Source of the DNA: Blastocatellia bacterium
Lineage (GTDB): Bacteria > Acidobacteriota > Blastocatellia > RBC074
Assembly (NCBI GenBank): GCA_031409955.1
Contig: JANNYF010000152.1
Location: forward strand, 7,070 to 71,069
Reading direction: 5' to 3'
DNA length: 64,000 bases
Made by a program: the position numbers and the translations under genes. The notes under the pieces were generated by a model. The model was not told where the DNA came from and made no database searches. It was given only the letters and a program-made list of their open reading frames with translations. Shown piece by piece: positions 24,106-47,626 of this stretch (within the stretch, counting starts at the first letter, position 1; every line of letters starts with the position of its first letter).

Positions 24106-24633
24106 TTATTTTCTGCGCGCGAAAAGTTGGGTCAGGTAAATGCGACCTTTGGCATCCACGGCAACGCCGATGCCGGTTTCAGTCAAATCCTGATCCAAAA
24201 TGTTGTGACGATGTCCGTTGCTGTTGAGCCAGCCTTTGACGGCAACATCCGCCGGGTCAGGATGCCCATAGTTCATCGCGATGTTTTCGGCGAGACGATT
24301 CCAATTGGTGATGCCGAAGCCCACCACGCGTTTGCGCATAGTGGTTCCATTGGGACTGACATGGTTAAAATAATCGCGCATAGCCATGTCCTGGCTGTGC
24401 AAACGCGCGACACCAGACAAATCCTTCGCCATTGACAGAGGCACGAGATGGTTTTCCTCGCGAAAGCGATTGATCGCGGAAAAGACTTGTTCTTCAATGC
24501 TGGCGGCAGTCGCAGCGCTGGAAACGGCAGCGGCAATGGGCACATTCGCCACCGCTTTTGTCGGGGGAGTCAAGACGTCAGACGCCAACAAAACAGACGC
24601 CAGACACAGAACAAGGCACAACACACGATACAT
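24106..24633 (-). CDS. CAP (SCP-like) domain protein
   Basis: [36 protein letters not shown]; SD GGAG before the ATG at 24633. Confidence 0.92.
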
Positions 24634-24863
24634 CTCGTAGCTCCTGTCAAAATGTGACGAAGGATGGGTCGGGGGCGGAAGTCGCAAAAACTATCTTCTT
24701 CGGTGTAGGTACTAAATGGTTTCGATCTGTCGTTATTTATTTTCGGGAAAAGGATGATTGTGAAGACTGACCGCTATTCAGTCATCGAATCGGGGCGGAT
24801 TATGCCTGACGAAAACTAATTTGGCAACCCTCAAGTCGCAAATTGTTTTGAATAAATTTATTG

Positions 24864-26933
24864 TTATTGTGTGTTCTTGATTTTGTCGCGCAGACGCGCA
24901 ATGACACCGACTTCAACCGAGTGCTCCAAGGCAACTTCCCAATTGCGCCGGGCTTCCTGCGCGCGTCCCAATTCCCGCAGCACATCGCCGAGGTGTTCAT
25001 ACACCATCGCATTGCGGCGCGCATATAACGCGGCCTTTTCCAAATGACCACGCGCTTCCTGCAAGCGTCCCATCTTGTACTGCACCCAGCCCAGGCTATC
25101 GAGGAAGCTGCCATTCATCGGCTCAATGCTGACGGCCTTTTCGATCAGCGGCAGAGCTTCGTTGTAGCGCGCGCTGCGTTCTGCCAGGTAATACCCCAGA
25201 TTGTTCAGCGCCGTCGCATTGTCCGGTTCACGTTGCAACACGGTGCGCAATGTTTTTTCGGCTTCGGAGCGTTGTCCCGCACGATCCTGGATGGAACCAA
25301 GTTGGATCAGCAAATCCATATCGTTCGCATCAAGTTCCAACGCTTTGCGAATCGTGGCTTCGGCTTCCTTGAGCTGCCCGCTTTGCAATTGAATATTGCT
25401 CATAATGGTCAGCAACGTCGTGTCGCCCACCGTTTGTTCTTTGAGCATCGCGCGCAGCGCTTCAAGGCTTTCATTGTAGTTGCGCAAATCGCCCAAAACC
25501 ATCGCTTCCGTCAACTTCAGCGAGCGGTCGGTGGGATAGCGAGTGAGCGCGGCGCGCGTGGCTTCCAACGCTTCGCGGTATTTGCCTTCCTCGCGTAACC
25601 CATCAATCAACAAAGAGCTGACCATCGGATTGTTTTCGCCCAGCAATTGTTGCGCGCGCGTGAACACGGCCTGCGCTTTTTTCTTGTCGCCCTGCCGATT
25701 GTACGTGCGCGTGAGCTGTGCCACTACGGTTGTGAGCGTTTCGGTGCTGGACGCATCCAGTTTGGTTTTGGTGGTTAGTTCGTTGAAGACACCTTCGTAA
25801 TAAGCAATCGCATCGGCGGCGCGTCCAAGTTCTTCGTACGTTTCGCCCAGAATCAGATTGAGCTTTTGCCGCGCGCCCGGCTCCAAACTGGTAATTCCCT
25901 GTTTGAGCGTTTCGACGGCTTCCGCGCGTTTGCCGGAGCGGCGTTGTGCCACTGCCAGCAATTCGATCACACCCGCATTGAGCGGATCCGCTTTTTGCAA
26001 TTCACGTAGCTTCGCAATCGCTTCGCCGTAGCGTCCGGCCCGCACCAATGCCGCCCCATATCCGATTTGCAGCACGGGCGTGTCGAAGCGTTTCAGTAGG
26101 CGGTAGTACGTTTGCAGTTCCTCTTCGCCGTTGCTGGACAGACGCAACATATTCATCAAATTGCGCGCATTGACCGCAGACTCAGGGTCACCCTCGAACG
26201 CGCGGCGGGCGGCTTCGATGGCTTGCGCGCGCTTGCCCTGGGCGGAATACAATTGCGAAAGCTGATACCACGCTTGATCCGGCGAGATTTCCGTATTCAT
26301 CACCTGACGATAAAACGTTGTTTCCGTCGGAGCGCCTATCGCCGTCAGCTTTTCGAGCGCTTTGGTCTGGCGCGCCAGATCATTTTTCGTTTGATACAAA
26401 TCCGCTAGAAAAGCCCACGCCTCCGCATTAGTCGCATCAAGGCGCGTGACTTCTTCGTAAGCGCGAATGGTGCGGTCAAGTTGTGCGGGCTTCGCTTCTT
26501 TTTCGGAGCGCGTCAGGATGAGATACAGCCGCGCCAGCCACCGATGCCCATTCAGGCAATCCGGGTCGAGGCGAATGGCCTCTTTCGCCTCGCGTTCCAT
26601 CGCATCGGTTTGCCCCAGATAAAGATAAATCTCGCTTAAATCGGCGTGTGGATCGGCGGCAGTGGGATCAAGCTGAATGATCTCTTTGTAGATCGTGACC
26701 AACTCGCCCAAATTGGGCTTCCGCAAAGATTTCATTCGTTGTGCTTCGATGTAGCGCAGATAGGCTTGCTTGCGATTGCGTTTGGCTTCGGCAGATTCGG
26801 AGACGGGAGCGGACGCCGTCGCCTGATTCGAGGGTGCGGGCGGTTGCGCTCCTTGCCCGGCCAAGGCCGTTGTCAGCGAAAGTAGTAGGCTTGCGCCATT
26901 GCTTGCTATGAATTGTTTCCAGGTTGATTTCAT
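24864..26933 (-). CDS. Exported tetratricopeptide repeat protein
   Basis: Signal-like N-terminus and many TPRs, including ALNNLGY..DSLGWV. Confidence 0.9.
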   Translation of the reverse strand: MKSTWKQFIASNGASLLLSLTTALAGQGAQPPAPSNQATASAPVSESAEAKRNRKQAYLRYIEAQRMKSLRKPNLGELVTIYKEIIQLDPTAADPHADLSEIYLYLGQTDAMEREAKEAIRLDPDCLNGHRWLARLYLILTRSEKEAKPAQLDRTIRAYEEVTRLDATNAEAWAFLADLYQTKNDLARQTKALEKLTAIGAPTETTFYRQVMNTEISPDQAWYQLSQLYSAQGKRAQAIEAARRAFEGDPESAVNARNLMNMLRLSSNGEEELQTYYRLLKRFDTPVLQIGYGAALVRAGRYGEAIAKLRELQKADPLNAGVIELLAVAQRRSGKRAEAVETLKQGITSLEPGARQKLNLILGETYEELGRAADAIAYYEGVFNELTTKTKLDASSTETLTTVVAQLTRTYNRQGDKKKAQAVFTRAQQLLGENNPMVSSLLIDGLREEGKYREALEATRAALTRYPTDRSLKLTEAMVLGDLRNYNESLEALRAMLKEQTVGDTTLLTIMSNIQLQSGQLKEAEATIRKALELDANDMDLLIQLGSIQDRAGQRSEAEKTLRTVLQREPDNATALNNLGYYLAERSARYNEALPLIEKAVSIEPMNGSFLDSLGWVQYKMGRLQEARGHLEKAALYARRNAMVYEHLGDVLRELGRAQEARRNWEVALEHSVEVGVIARLRDKIKNTQ

Positions 26934-26988
26934 CTGACTCCCCCTCGCATTCGTGACTGCAACGTGAACTCGCAAAATGACTCTGTTA

Positions 26989-27537
26989 TTACTCGGTCTC
27001 GCCCAACCCCAATTTGATTTGCTCGGCGCTCATCGGAGTGGCTGGCTGCGCCGTTTTTTCCGATTCAAGCTCGGCCACCGCGCGCTCCCATTCGCCGCGT
27101 CGTGGAAAGCTATACGCAATCAGCAACAACGCCGCAATGCCGAGTCGCCAACTATATTCGCGGTTGCTCGTGACCAAACTCGCCACGACGCCCAGAATGC
27201 CGACGACATCGCCCAGCACCGCACCGACCAACGCGCACAGATACAACTGACTCAACAACGCGTTGACGCCCAGCCGCCCGGCTTGCAGCAACCGCGCGGG
27301 CGCAAGAAAAAAGCGGCGCAGAAACACAACGGCAACCGATACAACGGCAACGAGGCCAATGATGATGTAATGGCTATTCGTCAGCCATTCGTAATCGCCG
27401 CGCGGCATCGCCGGAGCAAACGCCCAACCAATGACGACATACAACACAGTGCTGACGCCGAGCGCCACGACGAGCAACGCTGTCAACCGATACCGCGCGC
27501 TCAAGGCAGTTTGATTGGCACTGGAGATGTACATCAA
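26989..27537 (-). CDS. Hypothetical 4-TM membrane protein
   Basis: Four hydrophobic helices; ATGA overlap with the upstream gene. Confidence 0.8.
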   Translation of the reverse strand: MMYISSANQTALSARYRLTALLVVALGVSTVLYVVIGWAFAPAMPRGDYEWLTNSHYIIIGLVAVVSVAVVFLRRFFLAPARLLQAGRLGVNALLSQLYLCALVGAVLGDVVGILGVVASLVTSNREYSWRLGIAALLLIAYSFPRRGEWERAVAELESEKTAQPATPMSAEQIKLGLGETE

Positions 27538-28109
27538 CGCTTCTCCACGATCAGGTCATCGCCCGTGCCCGCCTTCAAATCCGGGCCGGACGAACTCAAT
27601 CGGTATTCATTGGTCGTGCCGCGATACAACAACGGCCGCTCCCACAAATCAAAGCGCATCGGCATCGGCAAATAGCGCGGCGCAAGTTGTTCCAGCAGTT
27701 GATCGAACCCCTCCGCCATCACATAGCCGCCGCGCTCTTCTTGGTACGCCGCAAGCGCTTTGGTAATTTTTTGCAACACGTCTTCCGTGCGGCGAATCTT
27801 TTCGCGGCGAATTGCTTCGGTGACCAATTCGACGGATTCCCAGTGCTGATCGCCGAGCCGAATATCCGCAACTTTCCACTCGCCCTTTTCCTGCTTAAAG
27901 CGCAACGCAGTTTCAATGTTTGCTTCGACCACTGCGTTCGCGCCGAAGCCATTGCTGACCGTTTTGATACGCACCTGATCGGGTTTCAATTCCGCGCCGC
28001 CGAGCTTGCGAATCAACGCGCGCGCGTGTTTGGCAGTCAACCCGCCCGCCGCCCAAACGGCGACGCCGATAGTTAAAATCGTGATGGCAAACATGAATCG
28101 TGGGATCAT
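27534..28109 (-). CDS. Membrane-anchored protein with C-terminal GspG/T2SSG-like domain
   Basis: LQKITKALAAYQEERG..DLWERPLLY..YRLSSSGPDLKAGTGDDL; no prepilin cleavage motif. Confidence 0.78.
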   Translation of the reverse strand: MIPRFMFAITILTIGVAVWAAGGLTAKHARALIRKLGGAELKPDQVRIKTVSNGFGANAVVEANIETALRFKQEKGEWKVADIRLGDQHWESVELVTEAIRREKIRRTEDVLQKITKALAAYQEERGGYVMAEGFDQLLEQLAPRYLPMPMRFDLWERPLLYRGTTNEYRLSSSGPDLKAGTGDDLIVEKR

Positions 28110-28353
28110 ACAGCACTGCTTTCGACGGAACGCGAGGATGGTAGCAAAAGTCCCTGCGGAACGCGAGCGGGCCGATTGGCTTTGTTTTATTCGTCTCAAG
28201 GGGAAGCCTCCTCCCATCTAGAACATTCAGAAAACATTCTCGCGGGCTGCTCGTACACAGCACATAGCATCGCGTTGGAATCCATTGTAGAATGCCGGGT
28301 CATTGCTGGTGGATAGGCTGTCTGTGAATGTTGAGGTGGAGCGGGAAACCGTT

Positions 28354-28890
28354 ATGAGTTGCTGTCATCAATGCCGGAACGAAAATTTGACGGGCGCAGA
28401 ATTTTGCGATGAATGTGGTGCGCGTATGCAAATCCTGCTGGCGCAAGCCCTGGTTCCGCCGCCCCCGCCGAGCTTTTTATGTGACGATTTGAAGCCAAGT
28501 CCGGCGCGCCCGATTTCTCCCATCAGCAGATTGTTTGAAGATGAGGAAGAAGTGGTGAGTGGCAATGCGCGTCTGGTATTGATCGTGGCAGGGCGCGCGG
28601 GCAAAGAGTTTTCGCTCTCGAGGGCAGAGATGTTGATCGGGCGGTGGGATGCAGCGCGCGGGATTTTCCCCGATGTGGATTTGGATGATGCCGATCTGGA
28701 AACCAAAGTCTCGCGGCGACATGCACGCATCTTCAGCCAAAACAATCAATTTTGGATTGAAGATTTGGGCAGCCTCAACGGCACGGTCGTCAATCGCCAA
28801 CATCGCCTGCAACGCGGGCAACCGTATTTACTCAAAGACGGAGACGAAATTATCGTCGGCAAGACCTTTCTGAAATTTAGCCTTGTGTAG
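28354..28890 (+). CDS. Zinc-ribbon plus FHA domain protein
   Basis: CHQC..FCDECG; FHA motifs IGR, VSRRHA, DLGSLNGT. Confidence 0.92.
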   Translation: MSCCHQCRNENLTGAEFCDECGARMQILLAQALVPPPPPSFLCDDLKPSPARPISPISRLFEDEEEVVSGNARLVLIVAGRAGKEFSLSRAEMLIGRWDAARGIFPDVDLDDADLETKVSRRHARIFSQNNQFWIEDLGSLNGTVVNRQHRLQRGQPYLLKDGDEIIVGKTFLKFSLV

Positions 28891-28894
28891 CGCT

Positions 28895-30412
28895 ATGCCT
28901 TACTGTTCCCATTGTGGCAATCAGACTGGAACCGGAGACCCCTACTGCGGCGAATGTGGCGCACGGCAGGAAGCGGTCGCCATGCCTTCGACGCCACTGG
29001 TCACGCCGCCCAAACCAAGGGGCAGCGTCAACAATGCGCCGATGAACTTTCAGCTTGCACCGGGGACGGTGTTGGCAGATCGCTATCAAATCCAGCAACG
29101 TGTGGGCGGCGGCGGCATGGGGTCGGTGTACAAAGCGACCGATCGCAATCTGGCGCAGCGCGTGGTGGCGGTCAAAGAAATGATCGAACTCTTCGCCGAT
29201 CAAACCGCCCGCGCTAAAGCCATTGAAGATTTCAAGCGCGAATCCGAATTGCTGGCACGGATGGAGCATCCTTCGATTCCGACAATTTATGATTACTTCT
29301 TTGATCTGACGCGAGGCCGCTATTATCTGGTGATGAAGTTCATAGATGGCGGCGATCTCGCCACCTATCATCAAGCGGCGAAAGGCATCGTGGATGAAAT
29401 AACCGTCACGCGCTGGGCGGTGCAAATCTGTGAGGTGCTGGATTATATCCACTCGCAAACGCCGCCGCTGATTTATCGAGACTTGAAGCCGGCGAATTTA
29501 ATGCTGGATGCCCGCACGCAACGTGTGATGTTGGTGGACTTCGGCATCGCGCGCATTGTGGCTCCGACGCAGAAAGGTGTCACGGCAGTTGGCACCATGG
29601 GCTACGCGCCACCGGAGCTGTTTGCCGGCAAGGCGACACCCGCTTCCGACTTGTATTCATTGGGCGCGACGATGTTTCATCTGCTGACCGGCAAAGACCC
29701 ACAGGACAACCCGCTGTTGATTTTCGACTTTACAAAAAACCCCACGCCGCGCGCCATTAATCCGGCGCTCACCGAATGCATGGAACAAATCATTTGCCGC
29801 GCTGTTGAGCATGAGGCTTTAGCGCGGTTCCCCACCGCCCGGGCTTTTGGCCTGGCATTGGAAGCGCACCTCAACGATCTCAAGGCTGACAACGTCACCA
29901 GCGCCATTCCAATCATGGTCAGCGCCGCCCCGGTAATTGACCCGGTAATTGAAAGGCTTGAGGAGAGCGCACAACCGGCGGTGCCTGCGCCGTTGACTTG
30001 CGTTACTTGCAGCGAAGAGATTAGTCTAGGTGATCTGTTCTGCCCGTATTGTGGAACCGTATTGCAACGCGGTCAACGCATCACAGCCCGACTGATAGTG
30101 TTTGGAACCAATGAAATCGCAGCGCAATTCCCGCTGGATGTGGAAGGCGAACATCTGATCGGTCGCCCGGATCCGCACAATGGCGTCATTCCTGCCGTAG
30201 ACCTTTCGCGCTACGATAAAGGCGGTGGTGTTTCACGGCGTCACGCACGGATTATTACGCGTGGTCAGCAATTTATTATTGAAGATTTAGGCAGCAGCAA
30301 TGGCACGTTCATCAACGACAAACTCCAACTGGGACCGTCTGTGCAACACGTGCTGCGAAGCGGCGACCTGGTGCGTCTCGGCAGTACACAACTCCGGTTT
30401 ATGATTAACTGA
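28895..30412 (+). CDS. Ser/Thr protein kinase with zinc ribbons and C-terminal FHA
   Basis: CSHCG..CGECG; GGGGMGSVY, VAVKE, YRDLKPAN, DFG, APPE; CVTC..FCPYCG; IGR..SRRHA..GSSNGT. Confidence 0.95.
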   Translation: MPYCSHCGNQTGTGDPYCGECGARQEAVAMPSTPLVTPPKPRGSVNNAPMNFQLAPGTVLADRYQIQQRVGGGGMGSVYKATDRNLAQRVVAVKEMIELFADQTARAKAIEDFKRESELLARMEHPSIPTIYDYFFDLTRGRYYLVMKFIDGGDLATYHQAAKGIVDEITVTRWAVQICEVLDYIHSQTPPLIYRDLKPANLMLDARTQRVMLVDFGIARIVAPTQKGVTAVGTMGYAPPELFAGKATPASDLYSLGATMFHLLTGKDPQDNPLLIFDFTKNPTPRAINPALTECMEQIICRAVEHEALARFPTARAFGLALEAHLNDLKADNVTSAIPIMVSAAPVIDPVIERLEESAQPAVPAPLTCVTCSEEISLGDLFCPYCGTVLQRGQRITARLIVFGTNEIAAQFPLDVEGEHLIGRPDPHNGVIPAVDLSRYDKGGGVSRRHARIITRGQQFIIEDLGSSNGTFINDKLQLGPSVQHVLRSGDLVRLGSTQLRFMIN

Positions 30413-30476
30413 TAGTTGGGTTTTGGATTTTGGATTTCAACCCTCCAATGTCAAATCCCAGTAGCCCCCAAATACG

Positions 30477-30974
30477 ATGAAGACTTCATCCGAAACTATT
30501 TTCACGGTTCCGCCAAAGGTAAGCGAGAATCCGTTTGTCCAGAAAATCCCGACGCGGACGGAAGCCCCGGCTAGTCTAGGCCTACGAGCAGCGGCTTTTT
30601 TAGTGGATTACATTTTGACACTGCTCATTCTGGGCGTCGCGATCTCGCTGGCGATGATTTTCAAGAACGCCTTCCCCAGCGTTGCCAGTTGGATCATCAA
30701 TCTCGGTTATGTGGCAATGCTGGGCTTCGTGGTGTGGAACTGGGGATATTTGAATGTGCGGGATGGGCAGCGCATCGGGCAACGCCTGGTCGGAGTCAAA
30801 ATCACCTGCGCGGACGGTAGTGTTTTGGGATACCGCACGATTGTGCTGCGGCATTTGCTGGGATATCCGCTCTCTTTGCTGTGTGTGGGGCTGGGGTTTT
30901 TATGGATCATTCTGGATCCGAAACAGCGCGGCTGGCACGACAAGCTGGCGGGCACCTTGGTTGTTAAGAGTTAG
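30477..30974 (+). CDS. RDD family membrane protein
   Basis: LRAAAFLVD, GQRLVGVKI, RGWHDKLAGTLVV. Confidence 0.93.
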   Translation: MKTSSETIFTVPPKVSENPFVQKIPTRTEAPASLGLRAAAFLVDYILTLLILGVAISLAMIFKNAFPSVASWIINLGYVAMLGFVVWNWGYLNVRDGQRIGQRLVGVKITCADGSVLGYRTIVLRHLLGYPLSLLCVGLGFLWIILDPKQRGWHDKLAGTLVVKS

Positions 30975-31022
30975 CAGTGACGGATGAGATCGCCCCATCA
31001 TCCGCTGTTCGAGGTAACAAGT

Positions 31023-32177
31023 ATGCTCAATTGTGGGAAATGTGGAGCATCGGTCACGGAAACGGCGATTTATTGTGCAAGTTGCGGTCAGCGCCTGGCG
31101 GCGAACACTTCGTCAGCAACAGACGCTAAATCAGACTCTCCCCTAACCAAAGCCGCCAGCGCATTAGCCAAAGCTTCCGGGCTGGCAAAATCGCAACCGA
31201 ACCCGCGCTTTGGTTTGCTGGTGCGCGGGCTTTCCATTGTGGCTGGCGTCGTGCTGGCGTTCAGCGCGTATCTGGTCTATCGCAATCAAAGCTCGGTGGG
31301 CGGCACTCCGCCTGTCCTCAATATTGTCGCGCCGTTGGATAAATTCAACCGCCTGGTACAAGCCGGGAAACTCAGCGCCGAACAGGGGGATTTCAAAGCG
31401 GCGATTGTGAACTTCGAGGAAGCCGAAAAGCTGGTTCCCAACGATACGGATGTGCTGAAAAAGCTGGCGGATTTTTACTCCACCAATGGGCAGGTAGATA
31501 ACGCCGTGGCCAAATATTCCCGCATTGTCGAGCTGGATCCAAAAAATGTCGAAGCGCGGTACCAACGGGCGGAAATCCACATGACGCGGGGCTTCTGGAA
31601 GGAAGCGGTCGAAGACCTTCAGTATCTGGCCAGCAATGCTGCTCATACTGAGCAAGGCAACCTCGCGCGGCAAATTCTCGGCGGTGGCTTCACCGCCAAA
31701 CGCACGATTGAGTCATTGCCCGAAAAACATGCTTTGGCAAGAGGGCGCGGCAAACGCGGGCTGCAATTACCCGAAGTGAATGACACGCCGCCGCAGTTGG
31801 CGCTCACCTTGCCCAAGCTGGTCAATGGCGTCCCGGTGGCTCCGCTCAGCGCTTCGCCTTCCTCCGAGGAATATACCGGTGCCAGTGTCCTGGCGAAACG
31901 GCACAAAGACAAAGGGCAATATTATCTCAACGCCAGGATGTATTATTCCGCCATCAAAGAGCTGCAAAACGCGCGCCAATTGACATTTGATGACAGCGAT
32001 CTCAATTATCTGTTGGGACAAGCCCACGATGGGTTGAAGCAGTACCCGCAAGCGCGCAAATTTTATGAGCAGTGTGACAGCGGCGTGTATGTTCAGGTCG
32101 CCCGCGGAGCCGCCCAACAAGCCCGGAAAAACGAACAAAAACAAGCGAAGAAAACCCGCGAGAAAACGGACGATTAG
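31023..32177 (+). CDS. Zinc-ribbon, single-TM, TPR protein
   Basis: CGKCG..YCASCG, a TM segment (LSIVAGVVLAFSAYLVY) and TPR repeats. Confidence 0.85.
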   Translation: MLNCGKCGASVTETAIYCASCGQRLAANTSSATDAKSDSPLTKAASALAKASGLAKSQPNPRFGLLVRGLSIVAGVVLAFSAYLVYRNQSSVGGTPPVLNIVAPLDKFNRLVQAGKLSAEQGDFKAAIVNFEEAEKLVPNDTDVLKKLADFYSTNGQVDNAVAKYSRIVELDPKNVEARYQRAEIHMTRGFWKEAVEDLQYLASNAAHTEQGNLARQILGGGFTAKRTIESLPEKHALARGRGKRGLQLPEVNDTPPQLALTLPKLVNGVPVAPLSASPSSEEYTGASVLAKRHKDKGQYYLNARMYYSAIKELQNARQLTFDDSDLNYLLGQAHDGLKQYPQARKFYEQCDSGVYVQVARGAAQQARKNEQKQAKKTREKTDD

Positions 32178-32258
32178 CCATTAGTTATTAGCTCCATCGG
32201 TGGCAAAGTCCTAAAGCTAATTGCTAACAGCTAATCGCTAATCTACTAACAGCTAACA
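32173..32258. repeat. Inverted heptamer tandem-repeat element (ATTAGCy)n ... (GCTAAyy)n
   Basis: Left arm overlaps the TAG stop at 32175-32177; right arm ends 3 nt before the ATG at 32262. Confidence 0.8.
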
Positions 32259-32261
32259 TTT

Positions 32262-33995
32262 ATGCCACGCCTCCTTGTCAAAACCGGCTCTGCCAACGCT
32301 GATTCGATAGTTGAATTACAACGCCTGCGCACCACGATTGGTCGTTCGGTGCGCAATGATTTGTGGACCGACGATCCCTTTACCTCGCGCCTGCACTCCG
32401 AAATTCGGCAGCGCGGCGATGGCTTCTGGCTCTCAGATTCGGGCAGCGCCAACGGCACGTATCTGAATGGTGCGCGGCTGACGGCTCCAGTCATGTTGCG
32501 CGAGCGCGATGTGTTCCGCGTGGGCGAAACCGAAATCGTTTATGTCGAAAGCGACGAGACAGCGCCGTTGCGGGGGCAAACCGGCGTGTTGATTACGCCT
32601 GCTTCAGAAGCCACACAAATCAAACCGGAAGCCACGATTGTTGCCAGCGCGAAAACCGCTGTGACGGCGGTGTCCCAAGTGCTTTCCGCGATTGACATCA
32701 ATCAAACCACGGTCAGCGGCATGCCGCATGTGGCCGACACATCTGCCGACCTGCTGGCCGTCATCAGCCGCGTGAGTGTGGCGTTGCTCTCCTCGCGCTC
32801 GCTGGACGACACCTTAACGCAAGTTCTGGATTTCGTGTTTGAAGCGTTGCCAGCGGATCGCGGCTACCTGATGCTGTTTGAAAAAGCGTCGGCGCGCGCG
32901 GAGCCGGAATTGATTTGCAAGGCGTTGAAAACGCGCAAGCCGATCCCGGCGTCCGAACAACCCGAAGTCAAAATCAGTCACTCGATTTCCGAGCAGGTTC
33001 TCAAACAAGGCAATTCCATTTTGACGTCCGATGCGCAACACGATCCGCGCTTTCAGCAAAATCAATCCATCGTGTTGAGCGGCATTCGCTCTGTGATGGC
33101 GGTGCCGTTGGCGATTGAAGGTCGCATCCTCGGCATGATTTATGTGGACAGTTCGTTTGGCACGAATCGCTTCACCGAACCGCAGTTGCAATTGCTGACC
33201 TTGATTGCAGGCGTCGCCACGATTCGCATTGATAACGCGCGCCTGTTGGAATTGCAGGTCGAGCAAAAGCGCCTGGCCAACGAATTGGCCGTTGCCAGCG
33301 AGATTCAATTGCGCCTGCACCCAGCCCATCCGCCGCAGATCGCAGGCTACAATATGATCGGCGTGAGCTTTCCGTGTTACGAGGTCGGCGGCGATTACTT
33401 CGATTTTATCGAACGCAAAGACAAGCGCTACACAATTGCCCTGGGCGATGTGTCGGGCAAAGGAACGGGCGCGGCGTTATTGATGACTTCGCTGCACGCC
33501 GCCGTGCGCGCCTACGTCACCACCCCGGCCTCCGCCCCCGAAGTCGTGTCGCAAATCAATCAATACATCTACGACAACACGCCGTCGAATCGCTACATCA
33601 CGTTTTTCTACAGTGAACTTGATCCCAAAACGCATCAACTGACCTACGTCAACGCCGGGCATAATCCGCCGCTGCTGGTGCGCGCCTCCGGCGAGGTCGA
33701 AGAGCTGGATGTGGGCGGCTTCCCCGTTGGGATTATGCCGTTTGGAGAATACCTGGAAGCCACGGTGCAATTGAACTCCGGCGATGTGCTGATTATTTAT
33801 TCCGACGGCGTGACCGAAAGCGTCAACGAAAATGACGATGAGTTTGGCGAGCAACGCCTGATCGAAGTCATGCAAAAAAATCGCACCCGCACCGCTGCTG
33901 GCATCCGTGACCGCATTGATGAAGCGCTCACCCGTTTTGTGGGCAAAGCGAAATCTGTGGATGATTTGACCATGGTCATTGTGAAGCGGGAGTAG
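32262..33995 (+). CDS. FHA-GAF-SpoIIE (PP2C-type) protein phosphatase
   Basis: FHA (IGRS, SRLH, GSANGT), GAF (RSVMAVPL), PP2C motifs VGGDYFD, GDVSGKG, NAGH, YSDG, DDLT. Confidence 0.94.
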   Translation: MPRLLVKTGSANADSIVELQRLRTTIGRSVRNDLWTDDPFTSRLHSEIRQRGDGFWLSDSGSANGTYLNGARLTAPVMLRERDVFRVGETEIVYVESDETAPLRGQTGVLITPASEATQIKPEATIVASAKTAVTAVSQVLSAIDINQTTVSGMPHVADTSADLLAVISRVSVALLSSRSLDDTLTQVLDFVFEALPADRGYLMLFEKASARAEPELICKALKTRKPIPASEQPEVKISHSISEQVLKQGNSILTSDAQHDPRFQQNQSIVLSGIRSVMAVPLAIEGRILGMIYVDSSFGTNRFTEPQLQLLTLIAGVATIRIDNARLLELQVEQKRLANELAVASEIQLRLHPAHPPQIAGYNMIGVSFPCYEVGGDYFDFIERKDKRYTIALGDVSGKGTGAALLMTSLHAAVRAYVTTPASAPEVVSQINQYIYDNTPSNRYITFFYSELDPKTHQLTYVNAGHNPPLLVRASGEVEELDVGGFPVGIMPFGEYLEATVQLNSGDVLIIYSDGVTESVNENDDEFGEQRLIEVMQKNRTRTAAGIRDRIDEALTRFVGKAKSVDDLTMVIVKRE

Positions 33996-34004
33996 GATTG
34001 GTCA

Positions 34005-34102
34005 AGAGAGTCAGAGAGTCTGGAGAGTCGTGAAAATCTCGGACTCTCCAGACTCTCTGGACTCTATAAACTCTCCAGACTCCCTGACTCTCCAGACTTT
34101 TC
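34005..34102. repeat. Inverted nonamer tandem-repeat element (GGAGAGTCT)n ... (AGACTCTCC)n
   Basis: Three purine-rich units, then about six pyrimidine-rich units ending AGACTTTTC directly before the ATG at 34103. Confidence 0.85.
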
Positions 34103-35320
34103 ATGCTTACCTCCTACCTCCTGATTCCTCTGCTCTCTCTTGCGCCCTGTGTTTTGTGGCTGTGGTATTTCTACAGCCGGAGCCTCTACAAACGCCCGTC
34201 GTTGCGGGTGATTGCTCTGACGTTTCTGCTGGGCAGTGTGGCGACGCTGATTGCGATTCCGCTGAATTTATGGGGGCAATCGCTGTTTCTGAATCTGTTC
34301 GGCCCCGGCGTTTGGACACGCGTGCTGGTGCTGTTTCTGGTGGTTGGCCCGGTCGAAGAATTGTGCAAACTTTTAGCGGTTGCAGTGTATGCCTATCGTC
34401 GCCGCGAATTCGATGAACCGTTGGATGGTGTGATTTACAGCGCGACTGGCGCACTTGGTTTTGCCGCCATCGAGAACGTCATTTACCTGTCACAAAACAA
34501 CCCGCTGTTGGTGTTGTTGCGCGGCCCGCTGTCCAATCCGGGACACGCGCTGTTTTCTTCGTTCTGGGGCATGAGTTTGAGCCGTGCGAAATCCGCCCCG
34601 AATATGGTTACGCAACGCTTTCCCATTATCCTGCGCGGGTGGGTGATCGCATCGCTGCTGCACAGCACCTTTGATGTATTGTTATTGGCTTCGGAACGCA
34701 TCAGCATCCTGCTGTTTTACGTCGTCATCGCCGCGTTAGTTGCCTTGTTTTTCTGGGTGCGCAAGCAGATTCGTTTTCACCGCGATACATCGCCGCACCG
34801 CGAAGGCACAATGCTTTTGCAGATTATCAACCTCTGCGAAAACTGCGGCACGAAAGGCATCGCGGGCGAGCCGTGCCTGAAATGTCAGAGCATTGTTCCC
34901 GCGCCGCCGGACTCACCCGTTTGCCCGGTCTGCGCTTCGATCAATCGCGCCGAAGCGAATTTCTGTTTGCGTTGCGGCGCGAATCTGAAATTGACGGCAG
35001 CAGAGAATTTGGATCATCGCCCGCATTTGATTTCTGTCTCCACCGAAGGACAGGAATCACTGGCCTGCATTTTGAATCGCAACGAAATCTTTATTGGGCG
35101 CACGCTGAACAACGATTTCGTGATTGAGCATCCGTCCGTTTCCAAACGCCACGCCCAAATCACGGCCACCAACGGCACCCACACGGTCACTGATTTAGCC
35201 AGCAGCAACGGCACCTTCATCAACGGGCAGCGCATCTCAACCACCACCAAACTTGAAGACGGTTGTGAAGTCCGCTTCGGGCGCGCGCGCTACGTCTACC
35301 GCCAAAACCGAAGCCAATAG
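34103..35320 (+). CDS. PrsW-family intramembrane metalloprotease fused to double zinc ribbon and FHA
   Basis: GPVEELCK (EExxK), GFAAIEN (FxxxE), HALF, HSTFD; CENC..CLKC..CPVC..CLRC; IGR..VSKRHA..SSNGT. Confidence 0.9.
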   Translation: MLTSYLLIPLLSLAPCVLWLWYFYSRSLYKRPSLRVIALTFLLGSVATLIAIPLNLWGQSLFLNLFGPGVWTRVLVLFLVVGPVEELCKLLAVAVYAYRRREFDEPLDGVIYSATGALGFAAIENVIYLSQNNPLLVLLRGPLSNPGHALFSSFWGMSLSRAKSAPNMVTQRFPIILRGWVIASLLHSTFDVLLLASERISILLFYVVIAALVALFFWVRKQIRFHRDTSPHREGTMLLQIINLCENCGTKGIAGEPCLKCQSIVPAPPDSPVCPVCASINRAEANFCLRCGANLKLTAAENLDHRPHLISVSTEGQESLACILNRNEIFIGRTLNNDFVIEHPSVSKRHAQITATNGTHTVTDLASSNGTFINGQRISTTTKLEDGCEVRFGRARYVYRQNRSQ

Positions 35321-35417: not shown

Positions 35418-35615
35418 ATGGAACTTATGCTGCCGTTAAAGCACGTGACCGAACAAGACAAGCGCGCGTTGACTTTATACTTTGCCATCGCGTTGCTCGG
35501 CGCGGCGTGTGTGGTTTTTGCAATGCTGTACAAAGCAGATTTTCACGTCGGTAAAAAAGCGGACGCCGAACAATCACCAACCCCCGCGCCAAAGCCAACG
35601 CCCCGCAATCGCTAA
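35418..35615 (+). CDS. Small single-TM protein (65 aa)
   Basis: One hydrophobic helix and a Pro-rich tail; TAATG overlap with lnt. Confidence 0.65.
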   Translation: MELMLPLKHVTEQDKRALTLYFAIALLGAACVVFAMLYKADFHVGKKADAEQSPTPAPKPTPRNR

Positions 35616-38301: not shown

Positions 38302-38370
38302 ATTTCCCCTCATCCAGCAAAGTTGCGCTGCGCTGCTAATTTAATTTTAGCCGGCAATAAGGAGTTCGTT

Positions 38371-38658
38371 ATGGACGTAAAATCTGCTGTTCAAGTGGCA
38401 GTTCAATATATGAAAGATTTGTTCGCCTCTGAGCAAATAACCAATTTAGGATTAGAAGAGGTCGAGTATGACGATCATACAAACGATTGGATAGTAACCA
38501 TTGGGTTTTCCCGGCCCTGGGATTACCCACAAAGCAGCATCTTGCCAGGAATTGTTGTAAATTCATCTGCTCCACCAAAAAGAGCGTACAAAACCGTCAT
38601 AATTAACGACGGCACAGAAAAAATCCTTTCGGTGAAAAATCGTGAGATAAAACTCTAA
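38371..38658 (+). CDS. Hypothetical protein (95 aa), partner of the PIN gene
   Basis: SD AAGGAG; AT-rich codons; stop directly abuts the PIN ATG. Confidence 0.75.
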   Translation: MDVKSAVQVAVQYMKDLFASEQITNLGLEEVEYDDHTNDWIVTIGFSRPWDYPQSSILPGIVVNSSAPPKRAYKTVIINDGTEKILSVKNREIKL

Positions 38659-39123
38659 ATGGCTTCAGTAATCGTAGACGCCAATTTGTTAGTTCTCTTA
38701 CTGGTTGGGATTACCGACCGAGCGTTTATTTCTAAGCACAAGAAAACAAGAAGTTTTACCGAAGAGGACTTCGATCTCTTGACGATTTTCTTGTCGCAAT
38801 ATCAAAGTATAGTAGTAACGCCTAACATCCTTACTGAAACCTCTAATCTGGCAGGTTTGATAGGTGAACCTAATCGCTCATTTATTTTTGAGACCCTGAA
38901 AGTCTTATTGAAAGCCTATCAAGAGATTTATTTACCAAGCTCGACCATTTCCGACAATTTGCATTTTACTAGCTTAGGCATAACAGATTGCGGAATCATT
39001 GAAACACTGAGCAAGGAAGAGAATACGGAGTTAATTACGACGGATCTTGATTTATATTTGGCGGCGGCCAGTAGTGGAAAGAGAGTTTATAATTTCAACC
39101 ATTTGAGGGCTGCTTACCTATAG
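38659..39123 (+). CDS. PIN domain protein (putative ribonuclease)
   Basis: IVDANLL, ILTETSNL, GITDCGI and ITTDLDL give the four acidic PIN residues. Confidence 0.85.
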   Translation: MASVIVDANLLVLLLVGITDRAFISKHKKTRSFTEEDFDLLTIFLSQYQSIVVTPNILTETSNLAGLIGEPNRSFIFETLKVLLKAYQEIYLPSSTISDNLHFTSLGITDCGIIETLSKEENTELITTDLDLYLAAASSGKRVYNFNHLRAAYL

Positions 39124-45242: not shown

Positions 45243-46307
45243 TCAATCATTGGCACTGCCCGCACGTTGCCGATACACATACGCCAACAACTCTGCCACC
45301 GCGCGAAACAGTTCGGCGGGAATCGCGCGACCAATTTCGACGGTGCGATAAAGTGAGCGCGCCAGGGGCGGATTTTCAATCACAGGCACGTCATGCGCCC
45401 GCGCAATTTCACGGATGCGTTTGGCCATATCGTCCGCCCCTTTTGCCACCACCACAGGCGCGGCGTGGTTTTCGCGGTCATAGCGCAGCGCCACGGCAAA
45501 GTGGGTCGGGTTGGTGACGACAACATCGGCTTTGGGCACTTCCGTTGCGATGTGGCGTTGCAACATGGCCCGCGCCAGGCGGCGGCGCTGGCCTTTGACC
45601 ATCGGGTCGCCTTCCTGTTGGCGGTACTCGTCTTTGATTTCCTGCTTGGTCATCTTCAAGGACTTCTCGTGCTTGAACCAACCGTAGCCATAATCCACGA
45701 CGGCAAAAACCAAAACGACCATTCCCGCGCGCAATCCCAACCGATAGAGCAAATCGCCAACCGTCATCATAATGTGCGGGGCTGGTGCGCCGACCAGGGC
45801 CGGAGCTTCGCCCATCGCTTGCCTTACGGTTTCGTAACAAACCGCGACCATCACACCGATCACCAAAATGCCTTTGGCAAATTGCACCACACCTTCCATG
45901 CCCATTGAGCGTTTGAGATTGGCGAGCGGATTGAAGCGTTCGGCTTTTGGCTTGAGCGCTTCCGGCGTGAACAGAAACCCGCCTTGGGCAACGTTGCTGG
46001 CAACACCGGCAATCAGGACGGCGGCAATAATCGGCAACGACAGCACGGCCAGGCGTGACAACGCTTCCATCAGCAGTTGGGTGGCGACTAAGGGCGTGAG
46101 CGCGGCATCACTGCTGGCGTGCAACATCGTGCCGGTCATAAACACGGTAATGTGTTGGAGGATTTGTTCGCTCAGCATCCGCAGCATCAACAGCGCGGCG
46201 ATGAACCCAACCGCCGCAGGCAACTCCGGGCGACGCGCGATCTGCCCTTTTTTCCGCGCATCTTCGCGGCGTTTTGGAGTCGGTTTTTCAGTGCGATTTG
46301 AGGCCAT
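45243..46307 (-). CDS. flhB: Flagellar export switch protein FlhB
   Basis: RTEKPTPKR, KMTKQEIKDE..EGDP and TNPTH autocleavage motif. Confidence 0.96.
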   Translation of the reverse strand: MASNRTEKPTPKRREDARKKGQIARRPELPAAVGFIAALLMLRMLSEQILQHITVFMTGTMLHASSDAALTPLVATQLLMEALSRLAVLSLPIIAAVLIAGVASNVAQGGFLFTPEALKPKAERFNPLANLKRSMGMEGVVQFAKGILVIGVMVAVCYETVRQAMGEAPALVGAPAPHIMMTVGDLLYRLGLRAGMVVLVFAVVDYGYGWFKHEKSLKMTKQEIKDEYRQQEGDPMVKGQRRRLARAMLQRHIATEVPKADVVVTNPTHFAVALRYDRENHAAPVVVAKGADDMAKRIREIARAHDVPVIENPPLARSLYRTVEIGRAIPAELFRAVAELLAYVYRQRAGSAND

Positions 46308-46396
46308 GAAAAGTCTGGAGAGTCTGGGGAGTCTGGAGAGTCTGGAGAGTCTCGGACTTCAAAGACTCTATGGACTCTCCAGACTCTCCAGACTCA
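46308..46396. repeat. Inverted nonamer tandem-repeat element between fliR and flhB
   Basis: (AGTCTGGAG)x4-5 and (AGACTCTCC)n; begins in the fliR stop and ends at the flhB ATG. Confidence 0.88.
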
Positions 46397-47170
46397 CATT
46401 GTTCCCAACATTCGTTCGACCGTGTGGCGCAGCGTGGTGAAGGCAGTGCGGATGGCGCCGGGCAAAAAGAAAACGGAGGCACCAATCAACCACAAGCCGA
46501 CGGCGATTTTGAGCGGAAAACCGAGAATCAGGATTTCTAATTTTGGCGCGACGCGTCCGGCCACCGCCAATAAACTTTCCACCGCCAACAACACGATGAT
46601 GGCCGGAGCCGCCAGCGCGACACCAACTGCCAACGCATCGGCGGAAAGCCGCAACATGATTTCGGCCATTGAACCGTTCATCCCGAAGCCGCCCGGAGAA
46701 ACAAATTGAAAACTGCGCACCGTGATTTCCAACATCCAATGGTGTCCGTCCGCGCCCAGCATCACCATTAGCCCCAGCATCTGCGCCAAAATCCCCAGCG
46801 CGGCGGTTTGCGCCTGGGTCGCCGGATCAATCGTACTCGCCAGGGATAAGCCCATTTGAAAGCCAACCAGGCTCGCCGCCACTTCCAACGCGCTGAACAC
46901 CAAACGTCCGGCAAAGCCTAAAATAAAGCCGATCATCAACTCTCCGCCGAGCAACAAGGTCAGGCTGACCACCTCCGTCGGCGGCGTTGGCACGTGCGGC
47001 AGCAGCACCGGCGTGACGATCAAGGCGATACCCATAGCCAGCAGCGCGCGGACTTTGCTATTCACCGCTTGGTGATTCCAAAACGGCGCGAACGTGACGA
47101 CGCCTCCCACGCGGGCCAGAACGACCACGAAGATCAAGACCGGGCGCAGTGGGATGATGATTGGTTCCAT
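46394..47170 (-). CDS. fliR: Flagellar biosynthesis protein FliR
   Basis: ARVGG..FAP, GFQMGLSLA..DP, DGHH, LAAP, GFPLKI. Confidence 0.95.
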   Translation of the reverse strand: MEPIIIPLRPVLIFVVVLARVGGVVTFAPFWNHQAVNSKVRALLAMGIALIVTPVLLPHVPTPPTEVVSLTLLLGGELMIGFILGFAGRLVFSALEVAASLVGFQMGLSLASTIDPATQAQTAALGILAQMLGLMVMLGADGHHWMLEITVRSFQFVSPGGFGMNGSMAEIMLRLSADALAVGVALAAPAIIVLLAVESLLAVAGRVAPKLEILILGFPLKIAVGLWLIGASVFFLPGAIRTAFTTLRHTVERMLGTM

Positions 47171-47275
47171 GGCGGGTGCGGCACGGGGGAATGTAAGCGA
47201 CCTGAACTTCTCGGAAGGATGCTGACAGCAGCTCAGGTCGCTTACGTTTCCCGTACTGCATCGGTATCCCAACCC

Positions 47276-47545: not shown

Positions 47546-47557
47546 AAGCAACCTCAT

Positions 47558-47624: not shown

Positions 47625-47626
47625 TC

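What the first reader, a model, noticed from the sequence alone, without database searches (positions are those of the whole stretch)
28354..35320. Self-contained zinc-ribbon/FHA phosphothreonine signalling cluster: writer, readers, eraser and protease output
Seen: six co-oriented genes, namely ZnR-FHA; ZnR-kinase-ZnR-FHA; RDD; ZnR-TM-TPR; FHA-GAF-PP2C; and PrsW-double ZnR-FHA. That is four FHA domains and at least six CxxC ribbons in 7 kb. The kinase has intact catalytic motifs and no TM segment. Known: FHA binds pThr, PP2C reverses it, and PrsW proteases cleave anti-sigma factors in regulated intramembrane proteolysis. Inference: the membrane TPR/RDD proteins feed a soluble kinase whose phosphosites recruit the phosphatase and a membrane protease. 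I know no characterised pathway with this composition. It is my best protein-level candidate for an undescribed system, either envelope-stress/developmental signalling or a conflict system.
Basis: partly seen in the sequence, partly recalled or inferred. Interest (0 to 1): 0.72.

Follow-up and report, generated by a model that had tools for sequence, protein, structure and literature searches.

The report
Phosphothreonine-wired membrane protease operon
Six adjacent genes in a soil acidobacterium (class Blastocatellia) encode a protein kinase, a phosphatase, four phosphate-reading domains, six zinc ribbons and a membrane-embedded protease; they are always inherited together, which points to an uncharacterised switch where phosphorylation controls protein cutting at the cell membrane.

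Summary
Window 28354-35320 holds six co-oriented genes: ZnR-FHA; ZnR-kinase-ZnR-FHA; RDD; ZnR-TM-TPR; FHA-GAF-PPM phosphatase; and PrsW-double ZnR-FHA. That is four FHA domains and six zinc ribbons. Every catalytic and pThr-binding residue is invariant or nearly so in 50 orthologues.

The order and strand are the same in 49 of 49 complete Blastocatellia loci, where g6 is 54-94% identical, while the flanking genes change. One locus lacks the first two genes. Full-length PrsW-ZnR-FHA proteins were found only in this class.

New here: the closest non-FHA relatives of the protease (PrsW-double ZnR, mainly Chloroflexota) sit directly after a ZnR-RDD gene in about 44-51 of 74 loci. PrsW-ZnR-RDD, FHA-RDD and probably kinase-RDD fusions also exist. 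The cluster is therefore an older RDD + PrsW membrane kernel with a kinase/FHA/phosphatase layer added.

This makes RDD a partner of the protease rather than an input to the kinase. A defence-system reading is disfavoured. The phosphatase is RsbU/SpoIIE-type, not PstP-type.

I found no paper on this cluster or on RDD-PrsW pairing. It is a new variant of known Ser/Thr-FHA signalling, and the mechanism is inferred, not shown.

The parts
28110..28353 (.). Divergent intergenic region between the minus-strand GspG-like gene and g1; presumed promoter region. A GGTGGAG Shine-Dalgarno-like motif precedes the g1 ATG.
   Evidence: no consensus sigma-70 site was found here
28354..28890 (+). g1: zinc ribbon (aa 4-21), Pro-rich disordered linker, FHA (aa 106-169). 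Soluble. Paralogue of the C-terminal ZnR-FHA of g2 (42% identity over the FHA).
28883..30412 (+). g2: zinc ribbon (aa 8-25), Hanks-type Ser/Thr kinase (aa 68-340), zinc ribbon (aa 373-390), FHA (aa 425-500). No TM segment. The start may be the ATG at 28895.
30477..30974 (+). g3: RDD-family integral membrane protein; R37, D44 and D155 are invariant.
30984..32177 (+). g4: zinc ribbon (aa 17-34), S/T-rich linker of variable length, invariant A-S-G-L/F motif (aa 64-67), one TM segment (aa 76-94), fast-evolving TPR domain predicted to be periplasmic.
32262..33995 (+). g5: FHA (aa 24-88), GAF (aa 178-325), SpoIIE/RsbU-type PPM phosphatase (aa 387-576). The most conserved protein of the cluster.
34103..35320 (+). 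g6: PrsW-type glutamic intramembrane protease (aa 1-229), invariant juxtamembrane S-P-H-R-E-G-T (aa 230-236, nt 34790-34810), double zinc ribbon (aa 245-291), FHA (aa 330-393).
35489..35509 (+). Terminator-like hairpin (8-bp stem, T-run) downstream of g6. It is the longest-stemmed plus-strand candidate between g1 and the next gene (lnt).

Best explanation
This is a vertically inherited operon specific to Blastocatellia. It places an older two-gene membrane kernel under Ser/Thr phosphorylation control. The kernel is an RDD membrane protein plus a PrsW-type intramembrane protease carrying cytoplasmic zinc ribbons.

Shown:
- the domain content;
- intact catalytic and pThr-binding residues;
- strict co-conservation of the six genes;
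- the RDD-PrsW pairing in a second phylum.

Inferred mechanism:
1. The soluble kinase g2 autophosphorylates on its conserved activation-loop threonines.
2. It also phosphorylates disordered S/T-rich cytoplasmic linkers, above all the juxtamembrane linker of the bitopic protein g4.
3. The zinc ribbons on g1, g2, g4 and g6 give weak, phosphorylation-independent tethering. The four FHA domains then lock the complex together on pThr. This two-point docking is as shown for archaeal ArnA.
4. The FHA on g6 brings or activates the PrsW protease at the phosphorylated membrane complex that contains RDD and g4. The output is regulated cleavage of a membrane protein, most likely g4 or g3.
5. The GAF-gated phosphatase g5, recruited by its own FHA, resets the system.

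Inputs would be a periplasmic cue at the TPR domain of g4, a cue at the intramembrane site of RDD, and a small cytoplasmic ligand at the GAF domain. The likely role is envelope or cell-surface homeostasis, not defence.
For: - Domains and motifs.
- Operon-like layout: median gaps of 25-122 nt, the longest-stemmed plus-strand terminator-like hairpin after g6, and a divergent upstream gene.
- Synteny: 49 of 49 complete loci share order and strand, flanks vary, and divergence of g2, g4, g5 and g6 is correlated (Spearman 0.63-0.86).
- Distribution: full-length PrsW-ZnR-FHA occurs only in Blastocatellia-type loci. An exhaustive search of 1.84 billion representatives found only two other full-length clusters.
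- Kernel: a ZnR-RDD gene lies directly upstream of PrsW-double ZnR in 44 (HMM) to 51 (blastp) of 74 loci, mostly Chloroflexota, with no other conserved neighbour.
- Fusions: PrsW-ZnR-RDD (P0193) and FHA-RDD (L110). A kinase-RDD defence profile is matched separately by g2 and g3.
- Linkers: the g4 linker is 28-284 aa long with 22% S+T, against 10% in the rest of the protein. The g1 linker is 44-166 aa and Pro-rich.
- Precedents: ArnA, where the ZnF tethers and the FHA binds pThr (PMC12852372). The FHA-PP2C/kinase operon of Deinococcus. Fha binding pThr on the membrane protein TssL, and FHA-gated DgcB (PDB matches). PrsW-FHA/ZnR proteins predicted to be signalling peptidases (PMC3482391).
Against: - There is no experimental evidence for any step. 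The substrate of the protease is unknown, and the direction of information flow is inferred from architecture alone.
- The phosphatase is RsbU/SpoIIE-type rather than PstP/PrpC-type.
- The Chloroflexota kernel works without a kinase, so phosphorylation is an add-on and may modulate something other than proteolysis.
- One locus (L052) keeps g3-g6 but lacks g1-g2 at that position.
- The one characterised RDD protein was reported to be a cation/proton antiporter (PMC5996927), which does not fit a protease-partner role.
- B. subtilis PrsW cleaves its substrate on the extracytoplasmic side (my own knowledge). The conserved g4 motif, by contrast, is cytoplasmic.
Confidence: 0.5

Rival explanations
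1. An envelope-growth or division scaffold analogous to the actinobacterial FhaA/FhaB-PstP-PknA/PknB module. Here the kinase, phosphatase and FHA proteins organise membrane proteins, and the PrsW and RDD domains act mainly as membrane anchors or sensors rather than as a proteolytic output.
For: All four FHA domains match the FhaB/FipA model in NCBIfam (it is the top hit for g1 and g5), although below its cut-off. The cluster is class-wide and vertically inherited like a core function. lnt follows it in the close relatives.
Against: No RodA, PBP or PASTA-domain gene is in the cluster. The PrsW catalytic residues are invariant in 50 of 50 orthologues, which argues for an active protease. lnt adjacency is lost in the more distant loci.
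Confidence: 0.15
2. The phosphatase g5 is the real output. As an RsbU/SpoIIE-type PPM, it dephosphorylates an unlinked STAS-domain anti-sigma antagonist (partner switching). The kinase and FHA parts only recruit or gate it, so the cluster would control a stress sigma factor encoded elsewhere.
For: The phosphatase matches PF07228 (SpoIIE). Its nearest solved relatives are Rv1364c, RssB and SpoIIE. g5 is the most conserved gene of the cluster.
Against: No STAS, RsbW-like or sigma gene was found among the ORFs scanned across the 64-kb window, or in the conserved part of the related loci. This reading does not explain the strict linkage to PrsW-FHA and RDD.
Confidence: 0.1
3. An anti-phage or inter-bacterial conflict system, in which a kinase senses infection and a protease or membrane effector executes the response.
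For: The kinase matches PADLOC PD-T4-6 and Mad6 profiles, and g3 matches the RDD tail of one PD-T4-6 profile. PrsW domains occur in polymorphic toxin systems (PMC3482391).
Against: - The PADLOC hits are generic Hanks-kinase similarity, and all NCBIfam defence models score far below their cut-offs.
- There is no toxin or effector domain.
- Gene order is fixed, the genes diverge in step across a whole class, and the flanks are housekeeping genes.
- Zhang et al. separate the FHA/ZnR-fused PrsW proteins from the toxin-linked ones.
Confidence: 0.05
4. There is no common function: the genes are adjacent only because signalling genes are abundant in these genomes.
For: FHA, kinase and TPR genes are common in Acidobacteriota (my own knowledge).
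Against: Order and strand are identical in 49 of 49 loci down to 54% identity, with changing flanks. The components share zinc-ribbon modules. RDD is independently linked to PrsW, FHA and probably kinase elsewhere.
Confidence: 0.02

Closest known systems
PrsW (YpdC) of Bacillus subtilis, the site-1 protease of anti-sigma-W RsiW
   Same: g6 has the same Pfam family (PF13367, 134.6 bits) and the conserved EExxK, FxxxEN, H and HxxxD motifs.
   Different: g6 scores 99.5 bits against the NCBIfam equivalog cut-off of 225. It has a C-terminal double zinc ribbon and FHA. No sigma/anti-sigma pair is nearby. It is paired with RDD.
PrsW fused to FHA / Zn-ribbon, 'signalling peptidases' predicted by Zhang et al. 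2012 (PMC3482391)
   Same: The domain fusion is the one seen in g6, and the prediction that signals sensed by the fused domains gate cleavage is the same.
   Different: That paper gives one sentence on architecture. It describes no operon, no kinase/phosphatase/RDD partners and no test.
ArnA/ArnB/ArnC of Sulfolobus acidocaldarius (archaellum regulation)
   Same: ArnA is a zinc-ribbon, disordered linker and FHA protein like g1. Its ZnF gives loose binding and its FHA gives tight pThr-dependent binding after phosphorylation by a Hanks kinase (PMC12852372). The ArnA FHA is a structural match.
   Different: ArnA's partner is a vWA protein. There is no protease, no RDD and no FHA on the kinase or phosphatase. 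The system is archaeal.
Mycobacterial fhaA-fhaB-pstP-rodA-pbpA-pknA-pknB cluster
   Same: Both are operons that combine FHA readers, a PPM phosphatase and Hanks kinases acting at the membrane. FhaB is the best FHA-specific NCBIfam match of all four FHA domains.
   Different: The mycobacterial cluster has PASTA receptor kinases, a PstP-type phosphatase and RodA/PBP genes. It has no PrsW, RDD or zinc ribbons. (The cluster's composition is from my own knowledge.)
Type VI secretion threonine-phosphorylation pathway (PpkA / PppA / Fha-TagH, pThr on TssL)
   Same: It has a writer, an eraser and an FHA reader. The FHA docks on a phosphorylated cytoplasmic tail of a bitopic membrane protein to switch on a membrane machine (PMC3953482).
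   Different: No T6SS genes are present here. The output here is a protease, not a secretion apparatus.
Deinococcus radiodurans DRA0331-DRA0334 operon (vWA, kinase, FHA, FHA-PP2C)
   Same: It is an operon with a stand-alone FHA protein and an FHA-fused PP2C that act antagonistically on kinases (preprint 10.64898/2026.01.23.701218).
   Different: A vWA protein takes the place of the membrane proteins. There is no GAF, PrsW, RDD or zinc ribbon.
FraH of Anabaena (double zinc ribbon, Pro-rich linker, FHA)
   Same: The architecture is the same as g1 (my recollection of Merino-Puerto et al. 2011, which I could not read here). FraH acts in intracellular membrane reorganisation (PMC11500504).
   Different: FraH is cyanobacterial and has no known linked kinase/protease operon.

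Membership tests
Hanks-type Ser/Thr protein kinase (PF00069) | Gly-rich loop, catalytic Lys, (H/Y)RD Asp, Asn, DFG, and an activation loop ending in APE | tested here: met
   G75-G80, K98, Y198-R-D200, N205, D219-F-G, T234/T238, and A242-P-P-E245. Invariant in 48-50 of 50 orthologues.
FHA phosphothreonine-binding domain (PF00498) | Conserved Gly-Arg, Ser-x-x-His and Asn-Gly residues that contact pThr | tested here: met
   All four domains keep them, 50 of 50 orthologues each. Actual pThr binding was not tested.
PPM/PP2C phosphatase, SpoIIE/RsbU branch (PF07228) | Metal-binding Asp motifs (GDxxD, GDVSGKG, SDG, DD) | tested here: met
   D378, D381, D396, D515 and D567/D568 are invariant. The nearest solved relatives are Rv1364c, RssB and SpoIIE.
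Hanks-kinase-cognate phosphatases (PstP / PrpC / Stp1 type) | Sequence membership in the PP2C_2/PP2C branch, and demonstrated dephosphorylation of the neighbouring kinase | tested here: not met
   Only PF07228 (SpoIIE) was hit, with no PP2C or PP2C_2 model. Activity on g2 cannot be tested here.
PrsW family intramembrane protease (PF13367) | Multi-helix membrane core with EExxK/R, FxxxE, H and HxxxD/N motifs | tested here: met
   134.6 bits. E85, E86, K89, F120, E124, N125, H148 and H187 are present in 50 of 50 orthologues, and D191 in 47 of 50 (N in the other 3). The AF2 model has seven long helices over aa 2-229, with pLDDT mostly 82-95 across that region.
PrsW sensu stricto (site-1 protease of an anti-sigma factor; NCBIfam NF033739 equivalog) | Score above the equivalog cut-off, and a cognate ECF sigma/anti-sigma pair | tested here: not met
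   99.5 bits against a cut-off of 225. No sigma or anti-sigma gene was found among the ORFs scanned across the window.
RDD family (PF06271) | Membrane protein with one conserved Arg and two conserved Asp | tested here: met
   72.4 bits. R37, D44 and D155 are present in 50 of 50 orthologues.
T6SS threonine-phosphorylation pathway | Linkage to T6SS core genes (TssL/M, TagH-type Fha) | tested here: not met
   The TagH model scores far below its cut-off. No T6SS genes were found in the window.
Known anti-phage defence systems (PADLOC; PD-T4-6, MADS, BREX kinases) | All system components present, or a full-length match to a single-gene system, in a defence-island context | tested here: not met
   Only the kinase domain matches, plus the RDD tail of one profile. 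g1, g4, g5 and g6 have no hit. NCBIfam MAD6 and PglW models score far below their cut-offs. The flanks are housekeeping genes.
ArnA-type ZnF-FHA adaptor | N-terminal zinc ribbon, disordered linker, C-terminal FHA, and a vWA partner (ArnB) | tested here: inconclusive
   The architecture is met for g1. No vWA gene is present, and orthology was not tested.

The most novel reading that the evidence does not exclude
RDD proteins and PrsW-zinc-ribbon proteases form an ancient, previously unrecognised two-component membrane proteolysis module, seen here in Chloroflexota and Acidobacteriota. In Blastocatellia the module has become the first example of intramembrane proteolysis gated by phosphothreonine: a Hanks kinase writes pThr on a membrane partner, and the protease's own FHA domain reads it to trigger cleavage. 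If true, this would give the widespread RDD domain of unknown function its first mechanistic role. It would also directly link Ser/Thr kinases to regulated proteolysis in bacteria.
Probability: 0.3. Interest if true: 0.78.

Novelty: new variant of a known kind. Interest (0 to 1): 0.6.

Why it matters
Bacterial Hanks kinases, FHA readers and PPM phosphatases are well known, but their outputs are mostly metabolic enzymes, division proteins or secretion machines. A kinase-FHA layer wired onto an intramembrane protease would be a new output class.

The result also offers a testable partner, PrsW, for the RDD domain. RDD is very common and its role is described as unknown (PMC12419801). Only one member has been characterised, and that was reported as an antiporter (PMC5996927).

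The cluster appears to be a core trait of Blastocatellia, which are abundant and poorly studied soil bacteria. The parts are small enough for reconstitution in E. coli.

Tried and rejected
- **Search for the six-gene cluster outside Blastocatellia.** I ran genome scans with g6 and with the most divergent full-length representative P0122, one metagenome scan and an exhaustive representative search. They returned only Blastocatellia-type full-length hits. Other phyla gave isolated FHA matches, FHA next to a kinase, or a stand-alone FHA-GAF-PPM (L115), never the set. The contig that carries P0122 itself was not found.
- **Context of the PrsW-RDD fusion P0193.** The last genome scan found only relatives of its RDD part.
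- **Defence reading.** PADLOC gave only generic kinase hits.
- **RNA elements.** Rfam found no match in the window at gathering thresholds.
- **Promoters.** The promoter scan gave nothing above shuffled expectation.
- **Fold search.** Foldseek of the g6 model against the PDB matched only the FHA domain and found no solved PrsW-like core.
- **Extra gene between g3 and g4.** The apparent extra DNA in distant loci is a longer g4 linker, except in L049, which has a real insertion; L046 shows the same wide gap but was not opened.
- **FraH.** I could not confirm its architecture from a paper held here.


Full report
**1. What is there**

Window 28354-35320 carries six plus-strand ORFs.

| Gene | Coordinates | Domains |
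|---|---|---|
| g1 | 28354-28890 | zinc ribbon + FHA |
| g2 | 28883-30412 | zinc ribbon, Hanks kinase, zinc ribbon, FHA |
| g3 | 30477-30974 | RDD |
| g4 | 30984-32177 | zinc ribbon, one TM helix, TPRs |
| g5 | 32262-33995 | FHA, GAF, SpoIIE-type PPM phosphatase |
| g6 | 34103-35320 | PrsW, double zinc ribbon, FHA |

- Twelve CxxC motifs form six ribbons.
- Hydropathy gives no credible TM segment in g1, g2 or g5. It gives one in g4, and several in g3 and g6.
- g1 overlaps g2 by 8 nt, and g3 and g4 are 9 nt apart.
- The longest-stemmed plus-strand terminator-like hairpin lies after g6, at 35489-35509.
- Upstream, a minus-strand operon diverges from the cluster: a weak GspG-like protein, a membrane protein, a 703-aa TPR protein and a CAP protein. 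Downstream lie lnt and two oligopeptide-type ABC ATPases.
- The rest of the window is ordinary chromosome: sugar-modification genes, metabolic enzymes and a large flagellar cluster. Rfam found nothing.

**2. Is it a unit?**

A genome scan with g6 identified the window as Blastocatellia (Acidobacteriota). It returned 77 relatives, most of them full-length, with 54-94% identity.

- tblastn and ORF-level blastp of all six proteins show the same six genes, in the same order and on the same strand, in 49 of 49 loci that contain them all. Further complete copies appear in later scans.
- An independent gene call with precomputed Pfam on a 77%-identical relative gives the same picture.
- Flanks are kept only in close relatives. 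In L019, for example, the neighbours are a ResB-like gene and a BON-domain gene.
- Median intergenic gaps are 25-122 nt.
- Divergence of g2, g4, g5 and g6 is correlated across loci (Spearman 0.63-0.86), as expected for co-inheritance.
- There are exceptions. L052 keeps g3-g6 but has unrelated genes in place of g1-g2. L049 has a HAD-like gene and a small membrane gene inserted between g3 and g4; L046 shows the same wide g3-g4 gap but was not opened.
- Conservation ranks g5 > g1 ≈ g6 > g2 > g3 > g4 by median identity. The periplasmic TPR part of g4 evolves fastest.

**3. Are the parts functional?**

In 50 aligned orthologues, the following are invariant or nearly so:

- the kinase residues K98, D200, N205, D219 and T234/T238;
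- the PPM aspartates;
- the PrsW residues E85, E86, K89, E124, N125, H148 and H187;
- the RDD residues R37, D44 and D155;
- the pThr-contacting R/S/H/N residues of all four FHA domains.

Two short invariant motifs stand out. One is S-P-H-R-E-G-T, immediately after the last PrsW helix of g6. It is disordered in the AF2 model, and a related S-P-F-R occurs in Chloroflexota and Myxococcota relatives. The other is A-S-G-L/F, about ten residues before the TM helix of g4.

The g4 linker between the ribbon and this motif varies from 28 to 284 aa and is 22% Ser+Thr, against 10% in the rest of the protein. The g1 linker is 44-166 aa and Pro-rich. g1 is a paralogue of the C-terminal ZnR-FHA of g2, at 42% identity.

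**4. How far does it extend?**

An exhaustive phmmer search of 1.84 billion representative proteins found only two other clusters that cover PrsW, ribbons and FHA full-length: P0121 (54%) and P0122 (44%). Everything else was a fragment, a PrsW protein without FHA, or a multi-FHA protein.

Scans with P0122 in genomes and metagenomes again gave full-length matches only in Blastocatellia-type loci. Other phyla show pieces: kinase-FHA and ZnR-FHA in Chloroflexia (L106, L108), and a stand-alone FHA-GAF-PPM in Aminicenantales (L115). None shows the whole set. Within the sensitivity of these tools, the six-gene composition is specific to this class.

**5. The older kernel (new result)**

The nearest PrsW relatives that lack FHA are proteins of about 290 aa with PrsW and a double zinc ribbon (P0128, P0149). 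One representative, P0193, is a PrsW-ZnR-linker-RDD fusion.

I fetched 74 genome loci of P0128 relatives. They are mostly Dehalococcoidia/SAR202 and Caldilineaceae, plus three MAGs labelled Paracoccaceae. I scanned them with HMMs built from the Blastocatellia orthologues.

- An RDD gene lies on the same strand directly upstream of PrsW in 44 loci by HMM, and in 49-51 by blastp.
- For 40 of 47 RDD ORFs, the end lies within 13 nt of, or overlaps, the PrsW reading frame.
- These RDD proteins carry two or three N-terminal zinc ribbons.
- No other neighbour is conserved. No FHA or PPM gene was detected, and a kinase lies within the flanks in only 8 of 74 loci, never adjacent.
- RDD is also fused to FHA in a Nitrospiria protein (L110 18-1661).
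- One PADLOC PD-T4-6 profile is matched by g2 over its kinase part and by g3 over its C-terminal part. This implies that kinase-RDD fusions exist.

RDD is therefore repeatedly linked to PrsW, to FHA and probably to kinases. The Blastocatellia cluster reads as [RDD + PrsW-ZnR] plus an added layer of pThr writer, readers and eraser, plus g4. No paper in the searchable library contains both 'RDD' and 'PrsW'.

**6. Mechanism**

*Shown:* composition, intact sites, co-inheritance and the RDD-PrsW pairing.

*Inferred:*
- The soluble kinase phosphorylates itself and the S/T-rich cytoplasmic linkers.
- The zinc ribbons provide weak constitutive tethering and the FHA domains provide tight pThr-dependent binding. 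This was demonstrated structurally for the ZnF-linker-FHA protein ArnA (PMC12852372).
- The FHA of g6 couples the protease to the phosphorylated membrane complex.
- The GAF-PPM g5, docked by its own FHA as in the Deinococcus FHA-PP2C, resets the system.

Two further precedents apply. Agrobacterium Fha binds pThr on the membrane protein TssL, and Bdellovibrio DgcB is gated by its FHA. The DgcB FHA is among the best structural matches of the g6 FHA.

The most likely substrate is g4, which is bitopic with a cytoplasmic ribbon and a phospho-acceptor-like linker, or g3. This is speculation.

Caveats:
- g5 belongs to the RsbU/SpoIIE branch of PPM phosphatases.
- The only characterised RDD protein was reported as a cation/proton antiporter (PMC5996927). 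Aravind and colleagues call the RDD role unknown, with a cytoplasm-facing intramembrane binding site (PMC12419801).
- No sigma or anti-sigma gene is nearby.

**7. Comparison and novelty**

The general logic, a kinase + PPM + FHA operon at the membrane, is well known from mycobacteria, T6SS, Deinococcus and Sulfolobus. The PrsW-FHA/ZnR fusion was listed in 2012 as a probable signalling peptidase (PMC3482391).

What is not described is this six-gene composition, its class-wide conservation, and the RDD-PrsW kernel. I rate it a new variant of a known kind.

The defence reading is unlikely. PADLOC gives only generic kinase hits, all NCBIfam defence models are far below cut-off, there is no effector, the synteny is fixed and the flanks are housekeeping genes.

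**8. Verdict**

The writer/reader/eraser/protease module is real and co-conserved. RDD is reassigned to the protease side, and the anti-sigma and conflict readings are not supported.
- Confidence in the general model is about 0.5. Confidence in the specific phospho-gated cleavage of g4 or g3 is about 0.25-0.3.
- Interest is 0.6.

Noticed in passing
window 24106-28217 (minus strand): A divergent upstream operon encodes a 191-227 aa protein with a weak GspG/T2SSG-like C-terminus (E 6.6e-4, just below the Pfam cut-off), a three-TM protein, a 703-aa TPR protein and a CAP-domain protein. At least its GspG-like and three-TM genes sit next to the six-gene cluster in close relatives and again in distant subclades (L054, L056, L057, L062, L064, L074); the TPR-protein gene also appears in L062, L064 and L074, and the CAP gene only in close relatives. 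They are absent from that position in the 60-64% identity group. A functional link is possible.
   Followed up: partly
window 45243-63544 (minus strand): A large flagellar gene cluster is present: FlhB, FliR, FliP, FliO, FliL, MotB, MotA, FlgE, FliK, FliJ, FliI, FliG, FliF and rod proteins. This Blastocatellia bacterium is probably motile. It lies about 10 kb from the cluster, and no link was shown.
   Followed up: no
L240-L313, e.g. L243 7002-8852: A conserved two-gene pair occurs in Chloroflexota (Dehalococcoidia/SAR202, Caldilineaceae) and in three MAGs labelled Paracoccaceae. A protein with two or three zinc ribbons and an RDD domain is followed immediately by a PrsW-double zinc ribbon protease. 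No other neighbour is conserved.
   Followed up: partly
L110 18-1661 (Nitrospiria MAG); protein P0193: These are fusion proteins. L110 encodes FHA, a Pro-rich linker, RDD and a C-terminal extracytoplasmic region. P0193 is PrsW, zinc ribbon, Pro/Ala-rich linker and RDD. The source genome of P0193 was not found.
   Followed up: partly
L052 1-6600: One Acidobacteriota MAG keeps g3-g6 but has unrelated genes where g1 and g2 normally lie. The kinase may be encoded elsewhere or may be lost.
   Followed up: no
L049 5447-6506 (probably also L046): A HAD-superfamily hydrolase-like gene and a small 96-aa membrane protein are inserted between g3 and g4 in L049. g4 is split there into two frames, possibly through a long-read indel. 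L046 shows the same wide g3-g4 gap in the ORF table but was not opened.
   Followed up: no
L004, L013, L015, L021, L022, L024, L027, L028, L044, L069: Records titled 'uncultured Heliobacteriaceae' or 'Heliomicrobium sp.' carry the acidobacterial g6 at 54-89% identity, and the longer contigs among them (e.g. L004, L015, L022, L028) carry the whole cluster. Their organism labels look wrong. The 'Paracoccaceae' labels on L240-L242 may also deserve checking.
   Followed up: no
L078 4905-6863 (Myxococcales MAG): A PrsW protein with several C-terminal zinc ribbons but no FHA lies convergent with an ORF that resembles an ECF sigma factor by eye; no family search was run on it. This hints that some ZnR-bearing PrsW relatives keep the classical sigma-related role.
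   Followed up: no
window 38323-39123: Two small ORFs without Pfam hits lie between the two ABC ATPase genes, in the lowest-GC stretch of the window (0.48 against about 0.54). A 77%-identical relative has a Uma2-family gene at the same spot (L321 14256-14843), so this is a variable insertion site.
   Followed up: no
window 54-5021: A sugar-modification set is present: GT4 glycosyltransferase, Bac_transf initiating transferase, PglD-like acetyltransferase, DegT aminotransferase and an epimerase/dehydratase. It resembles a bacillosamine-type glycan pathway.
   Followed up: no
proteins P0126, P0130-P0136: Very large proteins (up to 5734 aa) carry four to eight FHA domains that resemble the g6 FHA. 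Their nature and origin are unknown.
   Followed up: no
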